From Candidatus Omnitrophota bacterium (GTDB lineage: Bacteria; Omnitrophota; Gorgyraeia; Gygaellales; Profunditerraquicolaceae), in contig VGKG01000002.1 in assembly GCA_016867115.1 (NCBI GenBank), positions 70,449 to 134,448 on the forward strand: a stretch of DNA of 64,000 nt, read 5' to 3'. The notes beneath the pieces are model-generated. The model was not told the DNA's origin. It worked only from the letters and a program-made list of their open reading frames with translations, and searched no databases. Each line of letters begins with the position of its first letter. Positions within the stretch are counted from its first letter, which is position 1. Both the position numbers and the translations under genes were made by a program. This document shows positions 13,739 to 31,605 of this stretch, piece after piece.

Positions 13739-14491
13739 ATGAAAAATCGCGAATTCTTAGAGCCCGTTTTCATCGATGCCTTTGACCTGGACGATGCCTG
13801 GTTTCAGTGCCTATCGGCGATCCTGGAAAAAGGGCATGTCTACACTATCACCAAAGGCAGCTATGAAGGCCAGAAACGCCTGGAATTCGATTTCGTAGCG
13901 GTGCGCGTGAAAAAGCCGTCGCATCAGATCATACCCATAATCCCGGAAGGGATGAGCATCCCGGCGCCGACGGACATGGATTACATCCAGGGCTACCTAG
14001 GGTATCTGTTGACCGGGGCCAAGACCGAGACAGAAGACTATACTTACGGAGAAAGGCTGGTCGACCCCAAGGTCAGGATAAAGCAGGCGGAGGACGGCAA
14101 AGACCTGGTCAGGGAGATGCCGCTTCAGGTGAATCAGGTCGAAGAGGTGATCAGGCTTTATAAAGAGAAGGGGCACGGCACTAATCAGGCGACGATGGAG
14201 ATCGGGATGCCTTCGGATATTAAGCTGGTAGATCCTCCGTGTCTGCGCATCATCGATACCCGCGTGCGTTACGGAAAGTTGCATTTTATTCTTTATTTCC
14301 GTTCTTGGGACCTGTGGGGCGGATTTCCCTCAAACCTTGGCGGATTGCAGTTGGTAAAGCAATACATGGCGGATGAGATCGGCGTGGAGGACGGCGAGAT
14401 CGTCGCCGTCAGCAAGGGCTTGCACCTCTATGATTATTCCTGGGAACTGGCGAAACTGCGCACTAATAAGATGCACCTCAAGATTCAATGA
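13739..14491 (+). CDS. Divergent thymidylate synthase family protein (ThyA fold; resembles archaeal/methanogen-type ThyA or dCMP hydroxymethylase-like enzymes).
   Basis: The C-terminal half, PPCLRIIDTRVRYGKLHFILYFRSWDLWGGFPSNLGGLQL, aligns with the ThyA core [37 protein letters not shown], so the active-site Cys is retained. The N-terminal half is strongly diverged. Confidence 0.5.
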   Translation: MKNREFLEPVFIDAFDLDDAWFQCLSAILEKGHVYTITKGSYEGQKRLEFDFVAVRVKKPSHQIIPIIPEGMSIPAPTDMDYIQGYLGYLLTGAKTETEDYTYGERLVDPKVRIKQAEDGKDLVREMPLQVNQVEEVIRLYKEKGHGTNQATMEIGMPSDIKLVDPPCLRIIDTRVRYGKLHFILYFRSWDLWGGFPSNLGGLQLVKQYMADEIGVEDGEIVAVSKGLHLYDYSWELAKLRTNKMHLKIQ

Positions 14492-14892
14492 GAAGCCTGT
14501 CCTTTAAGGGTAAAGAGCGCAGGCGGTTCGAGAGGCTGGAGCATGTCAGGCCGCTGGCTTTTAAGGTCTGCAAGAGAAAGACCGTCTCCAGGATCTTGAG
14601 GGGCTATACCTCGAATATCAGCCAGTCAGGGTTGCTTTGCAACATCAGGGATAGGGTGCGCAAAGACGATATCCTCTGGCTTTCTTTTGACCGTGCCACT
14701 CTGGAGTTCTGCGGAGGCCTTGAGAAGAAGGCGTTGATTTATCAAAACGGCATTATTGCAAAGGTGATCAGAAGCGTAAAAAAGCCGGACGGCAGTTCGG
14801 ACGTGGGGTTGCATTTTATTACGCGGGAAGAGAAGAACCTCTCGCATATTTATCCGCGGGTGAAGTTTACGGTAAGGCCTAAAAATGTCTAG
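14488..14892 (+). CDS. PilZ domain protein (putative c-di-GMP binding).
   Basis: RxxxR (RRRFERL) and N/DxSxxG (NISQSGL) motifs. ATGA overlap with the upstream gene. Confidence 0.55.
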   Translation: MRSLSFKGKERRRFERLEHVRPLAFKVCKRKTVSRILRGYTSNISQSGLLCNIRDRVRKDDILWLSFDRATLEFCGGLEKKALIYQNGIIAKVIRSVKKPDGSSDVGLHFITREEKNLSHIYPRVKFTVRPKNV

Positions 14893-24274: not shown

Positions 24275-25846
24275 ATGGCAAAGCAGGTGAAATTATACGA
24301 TACGACTTTACGGGACGGGGCGCAGGGTGAAGGGATCTCTTATTCGGTAATGGATAAGGTGCAGATCGCGCTTGAGCTGGACCGCCTCGGGATCCATTAT
24401 ATCGAGGGCGGATGGCCGGGCTCTAACCCTAAAGATATGGAGTTTTACCTTAAAATGAGCAAGAAGCGGCTGAAAGGCTCTAAGCTCGTCGCTTTTGGTT
24501 CAACCCGGCGCGCCGGCATAAAGGCGCAGGAAGACAAGAACCTGCGGGCCCTGGTGAAGTCACAGGCCAGGGTGGCAACTGTCTTTGGTAAGACCTGGGA
24601 TTTGCATATCCGTGATGTCCTGAAGACCACTCTGGAAGAAAACCTGGCCATGATCCGGGATTCGGTAGCTTTTCTGGTTTCTAAAGGTGCGGAGGTCTTT
24701 TACGATGCCGAGCATTTTTTCGATGCCTACTACGCAAATAAAGATTATAGCCTGAAATGCCTGCTTGCTGCCCAAGAGGCAGGAGCAAGGGCGGTAGTTT
24801 TATGCGATACCAACGGAGGCACCCTTACCTCGGAAGTAAAGCGCATTGTTGCTGAGATCAGGCCTAAGATAAATGTGTGGCTGGGCATCCATTGCCATAA
24901 TGACGCAGACCTGGCAGTGGCTAATTCGCTTGCCGCAGTCGAGGCAGGCGCGGATATGGTCCAGGGCACGATCAACGGCTATGGCGAGCGCTGCGGTAAT
25001 GCCGACCTTATTCCTATCATTGCAAACCTGCAGATAAAGATGGGCTTTAATTGCCTTGAGCAACAGAAATTAAAGGAACTTACCCGGGTGTCGCACTTTG
25101 TCAGCGAAGTAAGCAATATGAAACAGAGAAGTGACCAGCCCTACGTAGGCGCATCAGCCTTTGCACATAAAGGCGGGGTGCACATCAATGCGGTGATGAA
25201 GAATCCCAAGACCTACGAGCACATTACGCCGGACCTCGTCGGCAACAGGAGGAGGATCCTGGTCTCGGAATTAGCCGGAAAGACCGGGGTCATGATCCGG
25301 GCAAAAGAGCTGGAATTGGACCTGAGCAAAGAGGATCCCAAGACCAAGCGCATCCTTAAGCTGATTCAGGACCTTGAGCATCAGGGATATCACTTTGAAG
25401 CCGCAGAGGCCTCTTTTGAGCTCCTGATGAAAAAGGCTCTTAAGAAATACAAAAAGTTCTTTGATCTTGAGGGGTTCCGCGTTGTTGTGGAAAAGGCCTC
25501 GGATAAGAAGATTACCTCCGAAGCGATCATCAAGCTTAAAGTCAAGGGTAGCAAGGAGCATACCGCTGCTGAAGGCGACGGCCCGGTAAATGCCCTGGAC
25601 AACGCCCTGCGCAAGGCCCTGAAAGATTTTTATCCCACCCTATCCCGGATGCACCTTTCTGACTTTAAGGTGCGCGTATTAGATGAAAAGGCCGGCACTG
25701 CGGCGAAGGTGCGCGTCCTCATTCAGTCGCAGGATGAAAAAGACACCTGGAGCACCATCGGTGTTTCTGAGAATATTATCGAAGCCAGCTGGCAGGCCCT
25801 GGTGGATAGTGTCGAGTATAAGCTCTTAAAAGATGCAAAAGCGTAA
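24275..25846 (+). CDS. cimA: (R)-citramalate synthase / 2-isopropylmalate synthase family (short-form LeuA/CimA).
   Basis: KLYDTTLRDGAQGEG and HxH-containing TIM barrel (GIHCHND), with a C-terminal LeuA-dimer regulatory domain. The start is moved to ATG 24275, downstream of the AGGAAAAA RBS. Confidence 0.75.
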   Translation: MAKQVKLYDTTLRDGAQGEGISYSVMDKVQIALELDRLGIHYIEGGWPGSNPKDMEFYLKMSKKRLKGSKLVAFGSTRRAGIKAQEDKNLRALVKSQARVATVFGKTWDLHIRDVLKTTLEENLAMIRDSVAFLVSKGAEVFYDAEHFFDAYYANKDYSLKCLLAAQEAGARAVVLCDTNGGTLTSEVKRIVAEIRPKINVWLGIHCHNDADLAVANSLAAVEAGADMVQGTINGYGERCGNADLIPIIANLQIKMGFNCLEQQKLKELTRVSHFVSEVSNMKQRSDQPYVGASAFAHKGGVHINAVMKNPKTYEHITPDLVGNRRRILVSELAGKTGVMIRAKELELDLSKEDPKTKRILKLIQDLEHQGYHFEAAEASFELLMKKALKKYKKFFDLEGFRVVVEKASDKKITSEAIIKLKVKGSKEHTAAEGDGPVNALDNALRKALKDFYPTLSRMHLSDFKVRVLDEKAGTAAKVRVLIQSQDEKDTWSTIGVSENIIEASWQALVDSVEYKLLKDAKA

Positions 25847-26025
25847 GCACCGAAAGGCCTCCGGAAAGAATGGGAAGTCGTATCTTGAGGTATACATTCT
25901 GCCGGATGCAGGCCTCATAGTTACGCCTTTGACCAGCCGTACTGTGCACGTTTTTAAGAGGTTTTCCGGAAGACAGAAGAAGGCTCTTCCCGGATTTTTT
26001 TGCGGTTGATTAAAAAGGAGCCTGT

Positions 26026-27573
26026 ATGCCTGAGAACAGATGCGACACCGAGATCGATGTCCTGATCCGCGCCCGCTACCCCCTTATTTACGTAGTCAGC
26101 TGGGAAGAGCCGCGTATTTTAGAGAGGCTTAAAAGCTTAGCTGACCGGCGCCAGAAAAAACTTTTTCTCTGGTCGATCACCCGCGGGATCCATAAGATCG
26201 ACGACGAGCCATCAAAGGCGGATGAGGGGACGCGCGATCCGCTTAACGCCTTAAGTTATGTGGAGAGGTGCCCGGACCCGGCTATTTTTGTCTTCCTGGA
26301 CTTCCACTCCTACCTTAATGACCAGACCATCATCCGCAAGCTCAGGGACCTGGTCAGCAATCTTAAGAATACTTATGAGACCCTGATGATACTGTCGCCG
26401 GTCCTGACTGTGCCGGTGGAGCTGGAAAAAGAGTTTGTCGTCGTGGATTACGACCTTCCGACATACGAGGAGATCAAAGACCTCCTTTCCGGGATCATCG
26501 AAGTCGTCTCGAAAAATCAGGAAGTAAAAATTGAGCTGAATGACGAGACTAAAGAGAAACTGGTCAAGGCAGCCTTAGGCTTGACGCACCAGGAAGCGGA
26601 GAATGCTTTTGCCCGCGTGATAGTCCTGGATAAGCGGTTGGACATAAATGACATAGATAAGATCCTGGAAGAGAAAAAACAGGCGATCCGCAAAAGCCGG
26701 CTCCTGGAATATTACGAATCAAAGGAAGAGTTCGCTAGCGTCGGAGGACTGGATTGCCTTAAAGACTGGCTTAAAAAACGAGGGGCTGCTTTTACCCAGA
26801 AGGCCCATGAGTTCGGCCTGCCCCAGCCAAAGGGGATACTGCTTTTAGGGGTGCAGGGTTGCGGAAAGAGCCTTACGGCAAAGGCAGTGGCGAGCCTCTG
26901 GAAACTGCCGCTTTTACGCTTGGATATCGGCGCGGTTTTTAGCGGGATTGTCGGTTCCTCCGAAGAGAATATGCGCCGGGCAATCCGCGCTGCGGAGACG
27001 CTTTCCCCGATCATCCTCTGGATAGATGAGATAGAAAAGGGCCTCTCCGGAGTGCAGAGCTCTACTTTTTCCGATGCCGGGACTTCTGCCAGGGTCTTTA
27101 GCACCTTCCTTACCTGGCTGCAGGAAAAGACCTCACCTGTCTTTGTCATCGCCACCGCCAATAATATCCAGCTCCTGCCTCCGGAATTGCTGCGCAAGGG
27201 CAGGTTTGATGAGATATTCTTTGTTGACCTTCCCGCTGCCGATGAGAGAAAAGAGATCTTCGGCATACACATAAAAAAACGCAAGCGCGATCCCGCCAAG
27301 TTTGACCTGGCATCTCTCTCCGGAGAAAGCGACGGCTATAGCGGTGCCGAGATCGAGCAGGCCGTCATCTCCTCGCTTTATGACGCATTCCTTGAAGAGC
27401 GCGATATAAATAACCGGGACGTATTAAACAGTTTAAAACAGAGCGTCCCGTTATCAGTGACCATGCGCGAGAGCATCGAAGAGACGCGTAATTGGGCAAG
27501 GCAGAGGGCAAGGCCGGCAAGCAGCGCGCAGAGAGAGGGCGCCTGCAAGAGAGAGAGAAAAATCGAGCTGTGA
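26026..27573 (+). CDS. Ycf46-like AAA+ ATPase (N-terminal ~250-aa domain plus a classic AAA module).
   Basis: N-terminal RARYPLIYVVSWEEPRILERL resembles cyanobacterial Ycf46. Walker A GVQGCGKSLTA, Walker B ILWIDEIEK, second region of homology. Confidence 0.7.
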   Translation: MPENRCDTEIDVLIRARYPLIYVVSWEEPRILERLKSLADRRQKKLFLWSITRGIHKIDDEPSKADEGTRDPLNALSYVERCPDPAIFVFLDFHSYLNDQTIIRKLRDLVSNLKNTYETLMILSPVLTVPVELEKEFVVVDYDLPTYEEIKDLLSGIIEVVSKNQEVKIELNDETKEKLVKAALGLTHQEAENAFARVIVLDKRLDINDIDKILEEKKQAIRKSRLLEYYESKEEFASVGGLDCLKDWLKKRGAAFTQKAHEFGLPQPKGILLLGVQGCGKSLTAKAVASLWKLPLLRLDIGAVFSGIVGSSEENMRRAIRAAETLSPIILWIDEIEKGLSGVQSSTFSDAGTSARVFSTFLTWLQEKTSPVFVIATANNIQLLPPELLRKGRFDEIFFVDLPAADERKEIFGIHIKKRKRDPAKFDLASLSGESDGYSGAEIEQAVISSLYDAFLEERDINNRDVLNSLKQSVPLSVTMRESIEETRNWARQRARPASSAQREGACKRERKIEL

Positions 27574-28277
27574 CGTTAAAAAGGTTCCTCAAGCGCTTTG
27601 AGAGACTGGAAAATATCCCGCAAGAGAGCCTGCTTAAAGCCGGCCTTAAGATCTCCAAGCGCTTTGAGCGCCTTGAGATCGGAGATAAAAAGATAGAGCT
27701 GACCATCGCCGATACGGTCCTGACCGAAGAGAGCGCGCCCGGCGAGATCGAGTATCACGTGCTCTGTCCGATGTGCGGGGCGGAGAACCACTTTAAGAAC
27801 AGTGTTTGCGTCCTTTGCAAGCGTTCTCTGGAGATAGACGCTTTTTCCGGGAAGAGGCGGGAGCTGGCCCTCTTAAAAAAATGCAGCTGCGGGGCGATCA
27901 ACCAGAAGGAACGCCGGAATTGCTGGATCTGCGGCAAAGACTTCTTCCTGGAAAAGCAGAAAAAACCGCGGGTAGACGCGGAAAATGTAATCATCTTAAA
28001 TATAAACGGCAAAGAATACAAGTCTACTGATACTAATCTTCCTCTGGATATCCGCGCGCTCATGGAGAGGATCCGCAGGGAAGGGTATAAAAAAGAGCTG
28101 ATCGATGCCTGGATTGACGAGCGCAACCGGAAACTGGAAGGGCGCGAGAGTGAGCGGCGCGACCGCATGCAGCAGATCCAGCTTAACCTGGTCATGCGCA
28201 CTATAGGCCTGTTTATTTTTCTGCTGTTCATAATGGCACAGCTGGTAATGTGCTTCCGTTACGGCACGCAGAATTAG
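27570..28277 (+). CDS. Double zinc-ribbon protein with tandem KRFERLE N-terminal repeats and a C-terminal TM anchor. The GTG start overlaps the AAA ATPase stop (GTGA).
   Basis: CPMCGAEN...CVLCKRS and CSCGAIN...CWICGKDF Cys clusters, and a C-terminal hydrophobic helix TIGLFIFLLFIMAQLVMCF. The start is inferred from the GTGA overlap; the track ORF starts further upstream at ATG 27492, inside the ATPase gene. Confidence 0.45.
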   Translation: MTLKRFLKRFERLENIPQESLLKAGLKISKRFERLEIGDKKIELTIADTVLTEESAPGEIEYHVLCPMCGAENHFKNSVCVLCKRSLEIDAFSGKRRELALLKKCSCGAINQKERRNCWICGKDFFLEKQKKPRVDAENVIILNINGKEYKSTDTNLPLDIRALMERIRREGYKKELIDAWIDERNRKLEGRESERRDRMQQIQLNLVMRTIGLFIFLLFIMAQLVMCFRYGTQN

Positions 28278-28291
28278 AAGAGGAGGTAATC

Positions 28292-28684
28292 ATGTCTTCA
28301 GGAGGAAGCGTAATTGCTTTAGAGATCAGGGCGCTGGTGTGCCTGATAAAATCTATCGTGGATCTGGGGATCCAGTATAAGGAACTTGCCTCTATGCGTA
28401 CTGCCGACGGAAAAGTCCATAAAGTCGACCTGGTGATCAAGGATGAGTTCGGCAAAGAGATCGGGTTCGAAAAGACCGAGCAGGGTAATTACCGGATCGT
28501 CTCGGATAGCAGCGGTCTTAATCAGAACCAGATCAGGAAGCAGCAGGAGTTCGTAAAAAAGATCCGCCAGCGATATGCTTATAATAAGGTGGTGGAGGAA
28601 TTAAGGAAGCAGGGCTATACCATTGCCGAGGAAGAAAAGGTCGAGAAGAACACGATTAGATTAGTGGCCAGGAAATGGTCCTAA
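28292..28684 (+). CDS. DUF1257-like small protein.
   Basis: About 130 aa. ALEIRALVCLIKSIVDLGIQYK...KVDLVIKDEFGKEIGFEKTEQGNYRIVSDSSGLNQNQ...QRYAYNKVVEELRKQGYTIAEEE...IRLVARKW matches my recollection of DUF1257 proteins that accompany Ycf46. Strong RBS GAGGAGG. Confidence 0.5.
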   Translation: MSSGGSVIALEIRALVCLIKSIVDLGIQYKELASMRTADGKVHKVDLVIKDEFGKEIGFEKTEQGNYRIVSDSSGLNQNQIRKQQEFVKKIRQRYAYNKVVEELRKQGYTIAEEEKVEKNTIRLVARKWS

Positions 28685-28708
28685 AAATATCCAGCAGAGG
28701 AGACAGAT

Positions 28709-28909
28709 ATGGCCGGAAAACAGGAAGTAGAGATATTCATCTCTGACGACGGAGAATTGAAGGTGCACATCCGCGGGATCAAGGGGCCTTCCTGCGTGGA
28801 TGTTTTAGAGAAGCTTGCCGGCGACGGCGAGATCAAAGAAAAGGTCTTAAGCAGCGAATATTACGAGACCGTGAAAGAGGCCCCTAAAACCAGGATAAAG
28901 AAGCAATAA
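28709..28909 (+). CDS. DUF2997-like small protein.
   Basis: 66 aa. EVEIFISDDGELKVHIRGIKGPSCVDVLEKLAGDGEI matches the DUF2997 pattern (I.I..DG.V....G..G.sC). It lies adjacent to the DUF1257-like gene. Confidence 0.5.
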   Translation: MAGKQEVEIFISDDGELKVHIRGIKGPSCVDVLEKLAGDGEIKEKVLSSEYYETVKEAPKTRIKKQ

Positions 28910-28914
28910 ATTCG

Positions 28915-31605
28915 ATGAACGAAATCCCCACCCGTTATAACCCCAAGGAGACCGAGGATAAATGGTATAAGTTCTGGGAGGAGAAGGGATTCTTTGCGGC
29001 TGGCGCCAATCCTGAAAAGAAACCTTTCTGCATCGTGATACCCCCGCCCAATGTCACCGGTATCCTGCATATGGGGCATGCCCTGAACAATACCATCCAG
29101 GATATCCTTATCCGCTACCACCGCATGAAAGGCGAAGAGTCGCTCTGGATGCCCGGGACAGACCATGCCGGCATCGCCACCCAGAACGTGGTGGAGAAAG
29201 CCTTGGCTAAAGAAGGGCTGAAGCGCCAGGACCTGGGCCGGGAAAAGTTTATCCGGCGGGTCTGGCAGTGGAAGGAGCAATACGGCTCAACGATCATCCG
29301 GCAGCTGAAGAAGCTGGGCGCCTCCTGCGATTGGCAGCGGGAACGTTTTACCATGGATGAGGGGTATTCCTGCGCAGTGATCGAGGTTTTCGTACGCTTA
29401 TACGAAAAAGGGTTGATCTACCGGGGCAGTTACATCATCAACTGGTGCCCGAGATGCCAGACTGCGCTTTCGGATGAAGAGGCGCCGCACCATGAATTAC
29501 AGGGGAATCTCTATTATCTCAGATACCCCTTTAAAGATAATCCGGATGAGTATATCGTGGTAGCGACTACCAGGCCTGAGACTATGCTGGGAGATACCGC
29601 GGTAGCAGTCAATCCTAAAGACAGGCGCTATAAAAAAGCTATCGGTAAGTGCCTGATCTTGCCGTTGATTAACCGCGAGATCAGGGTGATCGCGGATAGT
29701 ATGGTGGACATGGAGTTCGGTACCGGTGCAGTAAAGGTGACTCCGGCGCATGATCCTAATGACTATTGCCTGGCCAAGAAACATAATCTGGAGTTTGTAA
29801 ATGTCATGCATCCGGATGCTTCGATGAACGACGCAGCCGGCGATTACCGGAATATGGACCGTTTTGAAGCGCGCGAGGTGATCCTGGAAGACCTGAAAGA
29901 AAAGGGGCTCCTGGAGAAGGTCGTGCCCCACGTTTTATCCGCCGGCCACTGTTACCGCTGCCACACTATTATTGAACCGTACTTGTCGAAGCAGTGGTTC
30001 GTGAAGATGAAACCGCTGGCAAAACCTGCGATCGATGCGGTGAAAAAGGGCAAGATCAGGTTTCATCCTGGCCGCTGGACCAAGGTGTATCTAAACTGGA
30101 TGGAGAATATCCAGGACTGGTGCATCTCGCGCCAGATCTGGTGGGGGCACCGCCTGCCTGTTTACTACTGTTCAAATTGCATGAAGCAGGCAGACCAGTC
30201 ACCAGGTCAACGGGTCACCGGGTCACCGGTCAAAAACAAAGGCATAATTGTATCCAGATCAAAACCCGAAAAATGCCCGGATTGCGGCTCAAGTGATATT
30301 TACCAGGATGAGGACGTATTGGATACCTGGTTCTCCTCGTGGCTCTGGCCTTTTGCGACCTTTGGCTGGCCTGAGCTTAGCCAAGACTTAAAATATTTCT
30401 ATCCTACTGCTGTCCTGGTCACGGCACCTGAAATCATCTTTTTCTGGGTCGCGCGCATGATCATTGCGGGTTTTGAGTTCATGGGAGATATCCCTTTCCG
30501 TGATGTATATATTCACGGCACGGTGCGCGACATCGAAGGAAAAAAGATGTCCAAGTCACTGGGCAACATTATCGATCCCTTAAGCATTATCGATGAATAC
30601 GGAGCGGATGCCCTACGCTTTAGCCTCATCTCTATTACTGCGCAGGGTCAGGACGTATTCCTCTCCAAGGAGAGATTCGAACAAGGGAGGAACTTTGCCA
30701 ATAAGATCTGGAATGCCTCGCGCTTCATCCTGATGAACCTTGAGCCTGAGCAGGCCAGGGTAGACCTCTGTGACTACTTCCAGAAAGAAAAATTAAGCCT
30801 GGTCAACCGCTGGATATTGAGCAGGTTTTATTCGGCCCTTAAAGGGGTAGACCAGTATCTGGAAACCTTCCGCTTTAACGAGGCGGTAAATACTCTTTAT
30901 AGTTTCTTCTGGCATGAGTTTTGCGACTGGTATCTGGAGCTGATCAAATCCGATATCAAGAGAAATGAGAACCAGGTGGTGATGTATAAGATGCTGGAAA
31001 AATCCCTGCGGCTGATTCAGCCCTTCATGCCCTACATCGCAGAAGAGATCTGGCAGAGGCTTGCGCATGAAGGAGAATCGATCATGGTCCGGCCCTGGCC
31101 GCATGTCCAGGAGCAGCTTATCGATAAGAAGTGCGAAAAAGAGGCTGAGTCCGTCTTTGAGGCAGTCACCGGGATACGTAACCTGCGCACTTCTTTAGAG
31201 ATCAGGCCTGAACAGAGGGTGAAGGTCTCCCTTTATCCTCACGCAAAGGCAAAATCGAAATTACTTAACGAATCATCAGGTTTGATCAAAGACCTGGCGA
31301 GGCTTGAGTCGTTGGAATTCCTCTCTGAAAACAAGAGGCCTGCAGCCTGCGTAAGCGCGGTATCTAAGGATGCCGATATCTACCTGCATTTTAGCGGCCT
31401 CCTGGACCTGGCCGCGGAACAGGAGAAGATCAAAAAAAAGACAACTTCTTTAAGCGCACTGCTTCGGGCAAAAGAGGCGCGGATGAAGAACGCCGAATTT
31501 GTAAAAAAAGCGCCCAAAGAGGTCGTTGAAGGAGAAAAAGAGAGCATAAATAAATTAAACGAAGAGTTATCTCGGCTCCAGAAGATGCACGATGAACTAC
31601 GTTAA
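28915..31605 (+). CDS. valS: Valyl-tRNA synthetase.
   Basis: HIGH-class motif HMGHALNNTIQD, KMSKS, C-terminal coiled coil, 896 aa. Confidence 0.95.
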   Translation: MNEIPTRYNPKETEDKWYKFWEEKGFFAAGANPEKKPFCIVIPPPNVTGILHMGHALNNTIQDILIRYHRMKGEESLWMPGTDHAGIATQNVVEKALAKEGLKRQDLGREKFIRRVWQWKEQYGSTIIRQLKKLGASCDWQRERFTMDEGYSCAVIEVFVRLYEKGLIYRGSYIINWCPRCQTALSDEEAPHHELQGNLYYLRYPFKDNPDEYIVVATTRPETMLGDTAVAVNPKDRRYKKAIGKCLILPLINREIRVIADSMVDMEFGTGAVKVTPAHDPNDYCLAKKHNLEFVNVMHPDASMNDAAGDYRNMDRFEAREVILEDLKEKGLLEKVVPHVLSAGHCYRCHTIIEPYLSKQWFVKMKPLAKPAIDAVKKGKIRFHPGRWTKVYLNWMENIQDWCISRQIWWGHRLPVYYCSNCMKQADQSPGQRVTGSPVKNKGIIVSRSKPEKCPDCGSSDIYQDEDVLDTWFSSWLWPFATFGWPELSQDLKYFYPTAVLVTAPEIIFFWVARMIIAGFEFMGDIPFRDVYIHGTVRDIEGKKMSKSLGNIIDPLSIIDEYGADALRFSLISITAQGQDVFLSKERFEQGRNFANKIWNASRFILMNLEPEQARVDLCDYFQKEKLSLVNRWILSRFYSALKGVDQYLETFRFNEAVNTLYSFFWHEFCDWYLELIKSDIKRNENQVVMYKMLEKSLRLIQPFMPYIAEEIWQRLAHEGESIMVRPWPHVQEQLIDKKCEKEAESVFEAVTGIRNLRTSLEIRPEQRVKVSLYPHAKAKSKLLNESSGLIKDLARLESLEFLSENKRPAACVSAVSKDADIYLHFSGLLDLAAEQEKIKKKTTSLSALLRAKEARMKNAEFVKKAPKEVVEGEKESINKLNEELSRLQKMHDELR

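What the first reader, a model, noticed from the sequence alone, without database searches (positions are those of the whole stretch)
26026..28909. Ycf46-like AAA+ ATPase module (AAA / DUF1257-like / DUF2997-like) with an extra translationally coupled double-zinc-ribbon membrane protein
The 515-aa ATPase has the Ycf46-type N-terminal domain (RARYPLIYVVSWEEPRIL) and a canonical AAA module. In cyanobacteria this ATPase co-occurs with DUF1257 and DUF2997 proteins in a stress-responsive operon of unknown molecular function; this is recalled from memory and needs confirmation. Here an additional 236-aa gene is inserted after the ATPase with a GTGA overlap. Its product has tandem KRFERLE repeats, two Cys4 zinc ribbons and a C-terminal tail anchor. 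All four genes are tightly spaced on one strand. The module has no characterised mechanism, and the membrane zinc-ribbon partner may indicate the substrate or localisation of the ATPase.
Basis: partly seen in the sequence, partly recalled or inferred. Interest (0 to 1): 0.65.

Follow-up and report, generated by a model that had tools for sequence, protein, structure and literature searches.

The report
Ycf46-type ATPase operon with membrane adaptor
This is a real four-gene operon in an Omnitrophota bacterium: a Ycf46-family AAA+ ATPase, its two usual small partners (DUF1257, DUF2997), and a tail-anchored zinc-ribbon membrane protein whose short repeated 'RFxxLE' motif also marks unrelated proteins encoded next to this ATPase in other phyla, so the motif is a testable candidate handle for a long-uncharacterised ATPase.

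Summary
Four tightly spaced + strand genes encode a 515-aa AAA+ ATPase, a 235-aa zinc-ribbon protein (ZnR; GTGA stop/start overlap), DUF1257 (PF06868, 8e-24) and DUF2997 (PF11211, 9e-8). The ATPase is 46% identical over 494 residues to a cyanobacterial protein named YCF46. Cyanobacterial homologues also sit beside DUF1257 and DUF2997.

New findings:
- The 'Ycf46 N-domain' is a degenerate AAA+ fold (AF2 pLDDT 93; every top PDB match is an AAA+ module; no P-loop). The protein is therefore a pseudo-D1 plus an active D2.
- ZnR belongs to a family in Omnitrophota, Elusimicrobiota and unclassified bacteria. Motif-bearing members were always encoded AAA→ZnR→DUF1257→DUF2997, even with unrelated flanks.
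- Its two disordered N-terminal RFxxLE motifs recur at the termini of unrelated proteins beside Ycf46-type ATPases: SNF2 helicases, an NHL propeller, small myxobacterial membrane proteins, and a protein in eCIS-like clusters. This holds in 20 of 77 independent loci; a reversed-motif control gave 1 hit.
- ZnR relatives not next to the ATPase lack the motif.
- A C-terminal 'RKLEL' tail on the ATPase tracks DUF1257/DUF2997 adjacency.

Best reading: ZnR tethers the ATPase to the membrane through RFxxLE docking. This is inferred, not shown. It is a new variant of a known but uncharacterised module.

The parts
26026..27573 (+). Ycf46-family AAA+ ATPase gene (515 aa)
   Evidence: ORF. Pfam AAA 1.3e-28. 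46% identity over 494 aa to 'hypothetical protein YCF46' of Stanieria. 100% identical to an Omnitrophica MAG protein.
26026..26730 (+). Degenerate AAA+ module (pseudo-D1, residues 1-235). It has no P-loop: 'SWEEPR' (residues 25-30) follows strand 1, and 'FLDFH' sits at the Walker B position.
   Evidence: AF2 pLDDT 93.4, pTM 0.85. All top Foldseek PDB matches are AAA+ modules, E 5e-7 to 1e-5. No GxxxxGK[ST] in residues 1-235. E27, E28 and R30 are invariant.
26731..27573 (+). Active classical-clade AAA module (D2). Walker A GVQGCGKS 26848-26871; pore loop 1 GIVGSSE 26944-26964; Walker B ILWIDEIE 27013-27036; arginine-finger region LLRKGRFDE 27187-27213.
   Evidence: Motif coordinates. The family profile matches p97/Cdc48 D2 at 1.6e-58. 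NCBIfam hits are CDC48/PAN/FtsH-type only, all far below family cut-offs.
27553..27570 (+). C-terminal tail ERKIEL of the ATPase; candidate docking tail for DUF1257/DUF2997
   Evidence: E514 is invariant. The tail '[RK]x0-2[LI][ED][LF]' tracks adjacent DUF1257/DUF2997: 32/2/8/30, Fisher p 1e-10, not corrected for phylogeny.
27570..28277 (+). ZnR gene: 235-aa tail-anchored double zinc-ribbon protein. The GTG start overlaps the AAA stop (GTGA).
   Evidence: 57 homologues. AF2 model. The start position agrees with the homologue N-termini.
27594..27611 (+). RFxxLE motif 1 (RFERLE, residues 9-14), in a disordered segment
   Evidence: Invariant R9, F10, L13, E14. pLDDT below 50 for residues 1-56. 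Motif profile.
27660..27677 (+). RFxxLE motif 2 (RFERLE, residues 31-36), 22 residues after motif 1
   Evidence: Invariant R31, F32, L35, E36. Spacing is 21-26 residues, mode 22, in 99 two-motif family members.
27765..27932 (+). Two Cys4 zinc ribbons (C66/C69/C80/C83 and C105/C107/C118/C121)
   Evidence: Cysteines invariant or at least 90% conserved. Pfam DZR 3.4e-4, which is below its gathering score. AF2 pLDDT about 80.
27984..28112 (+). Conserved small hairpin-plus-helix domain (NxIxLNIDGKxYxSxDxxLPxDIxxLMxRIRxEGY..W). No Pfam family; duplicated in some relatives.
   Evidence: Conserved columns. pLDDT 87-91. Two copies in P0057-type proteins. No relation to DUF1257 or DUF2997 by hhalign. 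No significant PDB match.
28188..28256 (+). C-terminal transmembrane helix (tail anchor, residues 207-229)
   Evidence: A hydrophobic stretch at this position occurs in all 28 aligned homologues. It is part of a long helix, 175-234, with pLDDT above 90.
28292..28684 (+). DUF1257 (Ycf35-family) protein gene, 130 aa
   Evidence: PF06868 7.9e-24, 84.3 bits against a cut-off of 22.2.
28709..28909 (+). DUF2997 protein gene, 66 aa
   Evidence: PF11211 8.8e-8, 32.3 bits against a cut-off of 24.1.

Best explanation
The locus is a Ycf46-family AAA+ remodelling module.

The ATPase is a two-tier protein. A nucleotide-blind pseudo-AAA tier (D1, residues 1-235) sits on an active classical-clade motor (D2). 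By family knowledge it is presumably a hexamer.

DUF1257 and DUF2997 are its ancestral partners. They probably dock on the ATPase's conserved C-terminal 'RKLEL' tail.

The extra gene, ZnR, encodes a tail-anchored inner-membrane protein. Its cytosolic part starts with a disordered stretch carrying two RFxxLE short linear motifs. Two zinc ribbons and a small new domain follow.

I propose that the RFxxLE motifs are the handles by which the ATPase, most likely its D1 tier, grips the partner. Two motifs 22 residues apart would give avidity on a ring. On this reading ZnR tethers an otherwise soluble ATPase to the cytoplasmic membrane and is made stoichiometrically with it through translational coupling.

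Shown here:
- gene structure;
- family memberships;
- the D1 fold;
- disorder of the motif region;
- the cross-phylum association of the motif with the ATPase gene;
- decay of the motif where the ATPase is absent.

Inferred:
- physical binding;
- which surface binds;
- hexamer formation;
- the adaptor rather than substrate role;
- what is ultimately remodelled.
For: **Conserved cassette.**
- All 16 ZnR-anchored metagenome loci keep the order; those extending far enough show the full AAA-ZnR-DUF1257-DUF2997. The ATPase is about 78% identical across them and ZnR only 44-51%.
- Divergent ZnR branches P0057, P0186, P0216 and P0238 keep the same order with unrelated flanks. The stop/start distance runs from -4 to +11 nt.

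**Motif recurrence in unrelated architectures immediately after Ycf46-type ATPase genes.**
- SNF2 helicases starting 'ERFEWLEI', in Chloroflexota and one cyanobacterial-lineage MAG.
- An NHL propeller starting 'MTQYERFEFLEIDD', overlapping the AAA stop.
- Small myxobacterial proteins with N-terminal RFxxLE; five of seven have a C-terminal hydrophobic segment and four a zinc ribbon.
- A protein ending 'RFSLLELD*' in clusters holding an eCIS_core-domain protein or a baseplate-V protein.

**Statistics on 77 AAA-anchored loci outside the original family.**
- 14 motif hits lie within -60 to +300 nt of the AAA stop, against 1 for the reversed motif.
- 8 hits lie at an extreme C-terminus, against 0 for the reversed motif.
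- 20 of 77 loci are positive.

**Natural loss experiment.**
- ZnR relatives without RFxxLE are not next to an ATPase (L103, L104).
- L105 keeps the window's cimA-ZnR-valS synteny but lacks AAA, DUF1257 and DUF2997, and both motifs have decayed.

**Other support.**
- The motifs lie in a predicted disordered N-terminus, pLDDT below 50 for residues 1-56.
- 99 of 125 family members have two copies, 21-26 residues apart.
- D1 is a degenerate AAA fold. This is the layout of Pvc15, where only D2 is active and N-terminal signal peptides of payloads are selected (PMC11495950).
- The myxobacterial loci pair the ATPase with an RFxxLE membrane protein but without DUF1257/DUF2997. This argues that the motif partner is the ATPase itself.
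Against: - No binding was tested or modelled.
- The association statistics are not corrected for shared ancestry. The independent events are about five architectures, not 20 loci.
- About half of the Ycf46-type loci show no RFxxLE neighbour. These include Firmicutes, Melainabacteria, Actinobacteria and the four true cyanobacterial loci examined.
- The bare regex also hits an unrelated PilZ protein in the window.
- The ATPase's own tail (RKLEL) resembles the end of the motif (RLEI), so the receptor could be another protein.
- Terminal, disordered motifs fit a substrate tag as well as an adaptor.
Confidence: 0.5

Rival explanations
1. ZnR and the other RFxxLE proteins are substrates, not adaptors. 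On this reading RFxxLE is a terminal recognition tag, degron-like. The ATPase engages the tagged disordered end and threads it. That would unfold the zinc ribbons or extract the tail-anchored protein from the membrane, in the way Msp1/ATAD1 or Cdc48 act on their clients.
For: The motif always sits at a terminus in a disordered segment: N-terminal in ZnR, SNF2 and NHL proteins, and extreme C-terminal in the 'RFSLLELD*' proteins. Unfoldases start on such ends. D2 is closest to p97/Cdc48 D2 and keeps a pore-loop 1. Pvc15 handles payloads through N-terminal signal peptides (PMC11495950).
Against: Overlapping stop/start codons predict roughly equimolar synthesis. That fits a stable partner better than a substrate. 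Two evenly spaced copies look like an avidity device. Pore loop 1 lacks the usual aromatic residue (GIVG). A dedicated ATPase that destroys the product of its own operon neighbour needs an extra rationale, such as regulation.
Confidence: 0.25
2. The receptor for RFxxLE is the DUF1257/DUF2997 pair, or another factor, rather than the ATPase. The ATPase's RKLEL tail and the RFxxLE motifs would then compete for the same pocket.
For: The motif ends (R/K)-L-E-(I/L) and the ATPase tail is (R/K)-L-E-L. The tail tracks DUF1257/DUF2997 presence, p 1e-10. In the window both elements coexist.
Against: The SNF2, NHL and myxobacterial RFxxLE proteins sit next to ATPases in loci without DUF1257/DUF2997. Those ATPases also lack the tail. 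The only shared neighbour is therefore the ATPase.
Confidence: 0.1
3. ZnR is a functionally unrelated gene that merely rides in the operon. On this reading RFxxLE is a membrane-proximal or nucleic-acid/nucleotide-binding element with no link to the ATPase.
For: The cimA and valS flanks are conserved too in Omnitrophota, so some of the synteny is simply inherited. An RFERLE string also occurs in a PilZ protein. ZnR survives without the ATPase in L105.
Against: Four divergent branches keep AAA-ZnR-DUF1257-DUF2997 with unrelated flanks. The motif appears on unrelated proteins precisely at ATPase gene ends, 14 against 1 for the control. The motif decays when the ATPase is lost.
Confidence: 0.05
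4. The module is a mobile defence system or an accessory of a contractile injection system rather than a housekeeping remodelling module.
For: Related ATPases lie in clusters with an eCIS_core (PF13699) protein in Myxococcota, or with a Phage_base_V protein and a weak, sub-threshold tail-chaperone-like hit in a spirochaete locus. Homologues are common on plasmids. PADLOC gives IetA-model hits.
Against: The PADLOC and NCBIfam IetA hits cover only the generic AAA core (residues 259-488) and fall far below family cut-offs (77 bits against 510). No IetS partner is present. In the window the module sits between cimA and valS in synteny conserved across Omnitrophota. No tail or baseplate genes occur within the 22-33 kb stretch examined.
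Confidence: 0.05

Closest known systems
Cyanobacterial/plastid Ycf46 (slr0374; Synpcc7942_0417) and its small-gene operon
   Same: There is full-length homology including the N-terminal tier: 46% identity over 494 aa to a protein named YCF46. Cyanobacterial homologues neighbour DUF1257 and DUF2997. The function is unknown in both. The cyanobacterial operon is stress-induced and has been linked to CO2 use and KaiC (PMC7496141; bioRxiv 10.1101/2025.07.21.665879).
   Different: The host is a non-photosynthetic Omnitrophota bacterium. A fourth, translationally coupled gene (ZnR) is inserted between the ATPase and DUF1257. No RFxxLE neighbour was seen in the four cyanobacterial loci examined, where Hsp70/GrpE or HEAT/WD40 proteins flank instead.
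Pvc15/Afp15, the AAA ATPase of extracellular contractile injection systems
   Same: The AAA tiers are stacked and only the last is catalytically active. Partners are selected through short, disordered N-terminal signal peptides (PMC11495950). Some Ycf46-type ATPases lie in clusters with an eCIS_core or a baseplate-V protein.
   Different: Pvc15 has an additional N domain (about 700 aa) and sits inside an injection-system operon. D1 here lacks any P-loop. The window has no injection-system genes nearby. Homology beyond the AAA core was not tested.
p97/Cdc48 and Vps4 with cofactors that carry short linear motifs (VIM, VBM, SHP box; MIM-MIT)
   Same: D2 is most similar to p97/Cdc48 D2 (1.6e-58). 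The proposed logic is the same: short motifs in disordered regions of diverse cofactors dock on a non-catalytic part of the ring. That comparison rests on established knowledge of those families.
   Different: RFxxLE matches none of those motifs. The non-catalytic part here is a pseudo-AAA tier, not an N or MIT domain. Binding here is inferred only.
FtsH (membrane-anchored AAA protease) and Msp1/ATAD1 (extractor of tail-anchored proteins)
   Same: A classical-clade AAA motor acts at a membrane. Here the anchor would be supplied in trans by a tail-anchored protein.
   Different: There is no protease domain and no transmembrane segment in the ATPase itself. NCBIfam FtsH scores are far below cut-off (88 against 600 bits).

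Membership tests
Ycf46-family AAA+ ATPase (subgroup of COG0464 SpoVK/Ycf46/Vps4) | Full-length similarity, including the N-terminal region, to a protein annotated as Ycf46 | tested here: met
   BLASTP against P0348 'hypothetical protein YCF46 [Stanieria sp. NIES-3757]': 46% identity, residues 7-499, E 2e-158. JGI names close homologues 'SpoVK/Ycf46/Vps4 family'.
Ycf46-family AAA+ ATPase (subgroup of COG0464 SpoVK/Ycf46/Vps4) | One canonical AAA module with Walker A, Walker B and arginine-finger region | tested here: met
   PF00004 1.3e-28. GVQGCGKS, ILWIDEIE and LLRKGRFDE are present.
Ycf46-family AAA+ ATPase (subgroup of COG0464 SpoVK/Ycf46/Vps4) | Direct alignment with slr0374 or a plastid-encoded Ycf46 | not testable with these tools
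   Those sequences were not retrievable. A Synechocystis PCC 7338 chromosomal homologue (P0362) was found.
Ycf46-family AAA+ ATPase (subgroup of COG0464 SpoVK/Ycf46/Vps4) | Stress-responsive expression | not testable with these tools
   Known only from cyanobacterial literature.
DUF1257 (PF06868, Ycf35 family) | Score above Pfam's gathering threshold over the whole domain | tested here: met
   84.3 bits against 22.2; profile positions 3-103 of 103.
DUF2997 (PF11211) | Score above Pfam's gathering threshold over the whole domain | tested here: met
   32.3 bits against 24.1; profile positions 1-47 of 47.
Double zinc ribbon (DZR, PF12773) | Score above the gathering threshold | tested here: not met
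   21.2 bits against 27.3. Some homologues carry a precomputed PF12773 hit. Two Cys4 sets are conserved, so the zinc-ribbon character rests on the cysteine pattern and the AF2 hairpins, not on family membership.
Tail-anchored membrane protein | A single hydrophobic helix within about 30 residues of the C-terminus and no N-terminal signal peptide | tested here: met
   Residues 207-229 of 235. The feature is conserved in all aligned homologues. The segment is helical with pLDDT above 90 and the N-terminus is polar and disordered. Membrane insertion itself was not tested.
Pvc15/Afp15-type loading ATPase of contractile injection systems | Encoded within an injection-system operon (sheath, tube, baseplate genes) | tested here: not met
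   Neighbours within 22-33 kb are cstA, aspartokinase, cimA, valS, nadC and uvrB. Relatives in L037 and L046 do sit with a baseplate-V or an eCIS_core protein.
Pvc15/Afp15-type loading ATPase of contractile injection systems | N domain plus D1 plus D2 architecture (about 700 aa) with only D2 active | tested here: inconclusive
   Here the protein is a pseudo-D1 plus an active D2 (515 aa) with no extra N domain. The Pvc15 architecture is taken from PMC11495950. No direct sequence comparison was possible.
IetA (Ietas anti-phage ATPase) | Score above the family cut-off and an adjacent IetS protease | tested here: not met
   NCBIfam IteA scores 77.5 bits against 510. The PADLOC IetA hits cover only residues 259-488. 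No protease neighbour is present.

The most novel reading that the evidence does not exclude
RFxxLE may be a previously unrecognised, cross-phylum docking motif (a 'Ycf46 box') that defines the adaptor and client repertoire of Ycf46-family AAA+ ATPases. These partners would include membrane tethers, SNF2 helicases, beta-propeller proteins and injection-system-associated proteins. The ATPase's own RKLEL tail would be the matching handle for DUF1257/DUF2997. If so, partners of this long-enigmatic ATPase family could be predicted from sequence. That might extend to cyanobacteria and plastids.
Probability: 0.45. Interest if true: 0.8.

Novelty: new variant of a known kind. Interest (0 to 1): 0.64.

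Why it matters
Ycf46 is among the most conserved proteins of cyanobacteria and algal plastids that still lack a mechanism. The papers that discuss DUF1257 (Ycf35) and DUF2997 assign them no function, and only five papers in the searched library mention either name.

This locus and its relatives supply three concrete handles:
- a two-tier architecture with a nucleotide-blind D1;
- a short motif that marks the proteins encoded beside the ATPase in at least five unrelated architectures;
- a C-terminal tail that co-varies with DUF1257/DUF2997.

Each handle leads to a simple binding or mutagenesis experiment. The motif allows proteome-wide searches for further partners. If the membrane-tether reading is right, this soluble ATPase family does its work at the cytoplasmic membrane in several phyla.

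Tried and rejected
- **Fused-chain AF2 for the interface.** I built a paired alignment of AAA, a linker and ZnR. No interface model exists.
- **ZnR against the PDB (Foldseek).** Nothing was significant. The only matches were 24-25-residue hits to RanBP2/NZF-type zinc fingers with E above 1.
- **ZnR central domain as a relative of DUF2997 or DUF1257.** hhalign probabilities were below 2%. Rejected.
- **Defence-system reading.** PADLOC and NCBIfam give only generic AAA-core hits to IetA. Rejected for this locus.
- **Promoter and terminator scan of 25700-29200.** Counts did not exceed the shuffled controls and there was no + strand signal. Uninformative.
- **First greedy ORF-based enrichment test.** Spurious long ORFs in high-GC loci confounded it. 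I replaced it with a six-frame test using a reversed-motif control.
- **RFxxLE as a PilZ-like RxxxR element.** I considered this because the window's third RFERLE lies in a PilZ protein. ZnR has no PilZ hit. RxxxR spacing is not evident in the family consensus (KKFLKRFEKLE). Rejected.
- **Comparing D1 residues between motif-associated and motif-free ATPases.** Not attempted, because clade structure would dominate the signal.

Full report
**1. What is in the window**

Four genes lie head to tail on the + strand.
- A 515-aa AAA+ ATPase, 26026-27573.
- A 235-aa protein called ZnR here, 27570-28277. Its GTG start overlaps the ATPase TGA stop as GTGA.
- A 130-aa protein, 28292-28684. It starts 14 nt after the ZnR stop and has a GGAGG upstream.
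- A 66-aa protein, 28709-28909, after a 24-nt gap.

valS starts 5 nt after the last stop. A cimA-like gene ends 180 nt upstream of the ATPase.

Pfam places the two small proteins above the curated thresholds of DUF1257 (PF06868, 84.3 bits against 22.2) and DUF2997 (PF11211, 32.3 against 24.1). It finds one canonical AAA module at residues 271-401 of the ATPase.

- two RFERLE motifs, at residues 9-14 and 31-36;
- two Cys4 ribbons;
- a C-terminal hydrophobic helix at 207-229.

Its Pfam DZR score is below threshold (21.2 against 27.3), so the zinc-ribbon call rests on the cysteine pattern. The ATPase is 100% identical to a protein of an Omnitrophica MAG. ZnR homologues are also named from Omnitrophota MAGs. 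The window therefore comes from that phylum.

**2. Is the ATPase a Ycf46?**

The ATPase aligns from residue 7 to 499 with a Stanieria protein that NCBI names 'YCF46' (46% identity, E 2e-158). The alignment covers the N-terminal 235 residues.

Homologues in true cyanobacteria sit next to DUF1257 and DUF2997:
- Synechocystis PCC 7338 chromosome, in the order GrpE-like, Hsp70, DUF1257, DUF2997, ATPase;
- a Geminocystis plasmid and a Pseudanabaena plasmid.

The literature describes slr0373-slr0374(Ycf46)-slr0376 and Synpcc7942_0416-0418 as three-gene stress-induced operons of unknown mechanism. The papers that discuss DUF1257 (Ycf35) or DUF2997 give them no known function.

I could not check whether slr0373 and slr0376 themselves belong to these two families.

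**3. The 'N-terminal domain' is a dead AAA tier**

An AF2 model of residues 1-235 is confident (pLDDT 93.4, pTM 0.85). Every top Foldseek match in the PDB is an AAA+ module: RUVBL1/2, TRIP13, fidgetin-like 1, ClpA, FtsH, RFC and p97 ND1 (E 5e-7 to 1e-5).

The region has no P-loop. The invariant 'SWEExR' follows the first strand and 'FLDFH' occupies the Walker B position. The protein is therefore a nucleotide-blind D1 stacked on an active D2.

D2 carries Walker A GVQGCGKS, Walker B ILWIDEIE, a GIVG pore loop and an arginine-finger region. Its closest solved relatives are p97/Cdc48 D2 (1.6e-58). Pvc15 of contractile injection systems likewise has stacked AAA tiers of which only D2 is active, and it selects payloads through N-terminal signal peptides (PMC11495950).

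**4. The zinc-ribbon gene is a conserved member of the cassette**

A profile of ZnR homologues pulled 16 metagenome loci. All keep the order; those extending far enough show the full AAA-ZnR-DUF1257-DUF2997. The ATPase is about 78% identical across them and ZnR only 44-51%.

Those loci also keep cimA and valS, so on their own they could reflect inherited synteny. An exhaustive profile search found more distant relatives (26 below 1e-30, 111 below 1e-10), including Elusimicrobiota.

Four such branches (P0057, P0186, P0216, P0238) are again encoded between the ATPase and DUF1257-DUF2997. Their flanks are unrelated, and the stop/start distances run from -4 to +11 nt. The cassette is therefore maintained independently of its surroundings.

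**5. The RFxxLE motif**

Within the ZnR family:
- 99 of 125 members have two copies, 21-26 residues apart (mode 22);
- the consensus is (K/R)-R-F-(E/D)-x-L-E;
- the copies lie in a segment AF2 leaves disordered, pLDDT below 50 for residues 1-56.

I then scanned one genome per species with an ATPase profile. This gave 80 loci from many phyla. About half carry DUF1257/DUF2997. The motif turned up on unrelated proteins encoded at the ATPase's 3' end:
- SNF2 helicases beginning 'ERFEWLEI', mostly followed by a zinc ribbon, in Chloroflexota and a cyanobacterial-lineage MAG;
- an NHL beta-propeller beginning 'MTQYERFEFLEIDD', whose start overlaps the ATPase stop;
- small myxobacterial proteins with one to three N-terminal copies; five of seven have a C-terminal hydrophobic segment and four a zinc ribbon;
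- 139-388-aa ORFs ending '...RFSLLELD*', 'RFGKLEMD*' or 'RFSNLEL*'. They lie in Myxococcota clusters with an eCIS_core protein and pentapeptide repeats, and in two spirochaete clusters, one of which (L037) carries a baseplate-V protein.

I tested this on the 77 loci that exclude the Omnitrophota family. The test used six-frame translations and the reversed motif as a composition-matched control.

| Measure | RFxxLE | Reversed control |
|---|---|---|
| All hits | 36 | 9 |
| Hits within -60 to +300 nt of the ATPase stop | 14 | 1 |
| Hits at an extreme C-terminus | 8 | 0 |

Twenty loci are positive. Because homologous loci are not independent, the real weight is about five unrelated architectures that use the same terminal motif next to the same ATPase.

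**6. A natural loss experiment**

Three ZnR relatives without RFxxLE were looked up, and none is next to an ATPase.
- L103 has an AT-rich upstream region.
- L104 follows msrA.
- L105 keeps the window's own synteny (aspartokinase ACT domain, cimA, ZnR, valS, nadC) but lacks the ATPase, DUF1257 and DUF2997. Both motifs have decayed there, to 'KRRYIELSKE' and 'KETDLIKIDGK'.

Motif retention therefore tracks the ATPase.

**7. A second handle: the ATPase tail**

ATPases with adjacent DUF1257/DUF2997 end in a short conserved tail:
- ERKLEL*, GGRIEL*;
- RGGRTLDF* in Firmicutes, Melainabacteria and archaeal-labelled loci;
- GGRLVDF*, GGRALEF* in Actinobacteria.

ATPases without those neighbours stop right after 'WAxxRARPAS'.

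| | DUF1257/DUF2997 adjacent | Not adjacent |
|---|---|---|
| Tail present | 32 | 2 |
| Tail absent | 8 | 30 |

Fisher's test gives p = 1e-10, not corrected for phylogeny. At least three of the eight tail-absent, DUF-adjacent cases are near-misses of my regular expression. This suggests the tail docks DUF1257/DUF2997. It resembles the last four residues of the RFxxLE motif, which leaves open a shared receptor.

**8. Mechanism**

My preferred reading is that ZnR is a tail-anchored membrane tether. Its two RFxxLE motifs would dock the ATPase, probably on the D1 tier. DUF1257/DUF2997 would dock on the tail.

Arguments for an adaptor rather than a substrate:
- translational coupling is conserved;
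- the motif is duplicated at a fixed spacing;
- 'RFxxLE plus C-terminal membrane segment' proteins pair with the ATPase in Myxococcota without DUF1257/DUF2997.

In Melainabacteria the DUF1257 protein itself starts with a hydrophobic segment. Membrane attachment may therefore be a recurring need of the module.

The substrate reading remains a serious rival, because terminal disordered tags are what unfoldases grip. Nothing here shows physical binding.

**9. What it is not**

- It is not an IetA-type defence ATPase. Scores are far below the cut-offs, only the AAA core matches, and there is no protease partner.
- It is not part of an injection system in this genome, where the neighbours are housekeeping genes.
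- The ZnR central domain has no Pfam family, no significant PDB match and no relation to DUF1257 or DUF2997.

**10. Verdict**

The module is a new variant of a known but mechanistically blank system. The added value is the pseudo-D1 architecture, the breadth of the ZnR family, and two candidate docking elements that make the function of Ycf46-type ATPases experimentally approachable.

Noticed in passing
window 14491-14892 (+); motif at 14524-14541: The only other RFERLE string in the window lies in the N-terminal part of a PilZ-domain protein (Pfam PilZ 1.4e-7). It shows that the bare regular expression is not specific without context.
   Followed up: yes
L105:2147-2851 and its flanks: A related Omnitrophota contig keeps aspartokinase-cimA-ZnR-valS-nadC but lacks the ATPase, DUF1257 and DUF2997. 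Its ZnR has lost both RFxxLE motifs.
   Followed up: yes
L018:1918-2463 and L018:3077-3529: In one Omnitrophota lineage two shorter ZnR paralogues, each with one zinc ribbon, flank DUF1257-DUF2997 in place of a single double-ribbon gene.
   Followed up: partly
L033, L034, L051, L062, L083 (Chloroflexota) and L070: SNF2-family helicases (SNF2-rel_dom plus Helicase_C) that begin with 'ERFEWLEI', mostly followed by a zinc ribbon, are encoded directly after, or within about 2.6 kb of, a Ycf46-type ATPase that lacks the C-terminal tail.
   Followed up: partly
L046:6194-8120; also L042, L050, L059, L091; L037:5539-8288; L032: In Myxococcota the Ycf46-type ATPase genes sit in clusters with an eCIS_core (PF13699) protein and pentapeptide repeats. 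In the spirochaete locus L037 the cluster has a Phage_base_V protein and a weak, sub-threshold tail-chaperone-like hit. In these clusters and in L032 a protein ends with RFSLLELD or a similar motif. This suggests a link to contractile injection systems in those lineages.
   Followed up: partly
L107:1-5518 and L108:1110-5521: In Pseudanabaena (plasmid) and Synechocystis PCC 7338 (chromosome) the DUF1257, DUF2997 and ATPase genes follow GrpE-like and Hsp70 genes. This hints at a protein quality-control setting.
   Followed up: no
L061:1362-7633: A KSB1 MAG carries three tandem paralogues of the ATPase (614-628 aa), with DUF1257 and DUF2997 between the first and second.
   Followed up: no
L072, L075, L078, L082 (DUF1257 genes): In Melainabacteria and related loci the DUF1257 protein has an N-terminal hydrophobic segment (for example MSCTVVAMPIALGWWLVGGIIATT). 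In those lineages the membrane anchor may lie on DUF1257 itself.
   Followed up: no
window 28909-28915; L002-L019: valS starts 5 nt after the DUF2997 stop, and the cimA-module-valS order is conserved across Omnitrophota. The module is probably co-transcribed with an essential tRNA synthetase gene. No terminator-like site was found on the + strand.
   Followed up: partly
plasmid collection: 681 plasmid records match the ATPase at E 1e-40 or better, but only 70 cover at least 80% of it. Most of the rest are Klebsiella, Escherichia and other enterobacterial conjugative plasmids that probably share only the AAA core. Full-length plasmid copies occur in Treponema, Bacillus, Paenarthrobacter, Geminocystis, Pseudanabaena and Planktothrix.
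   Followed up: partly
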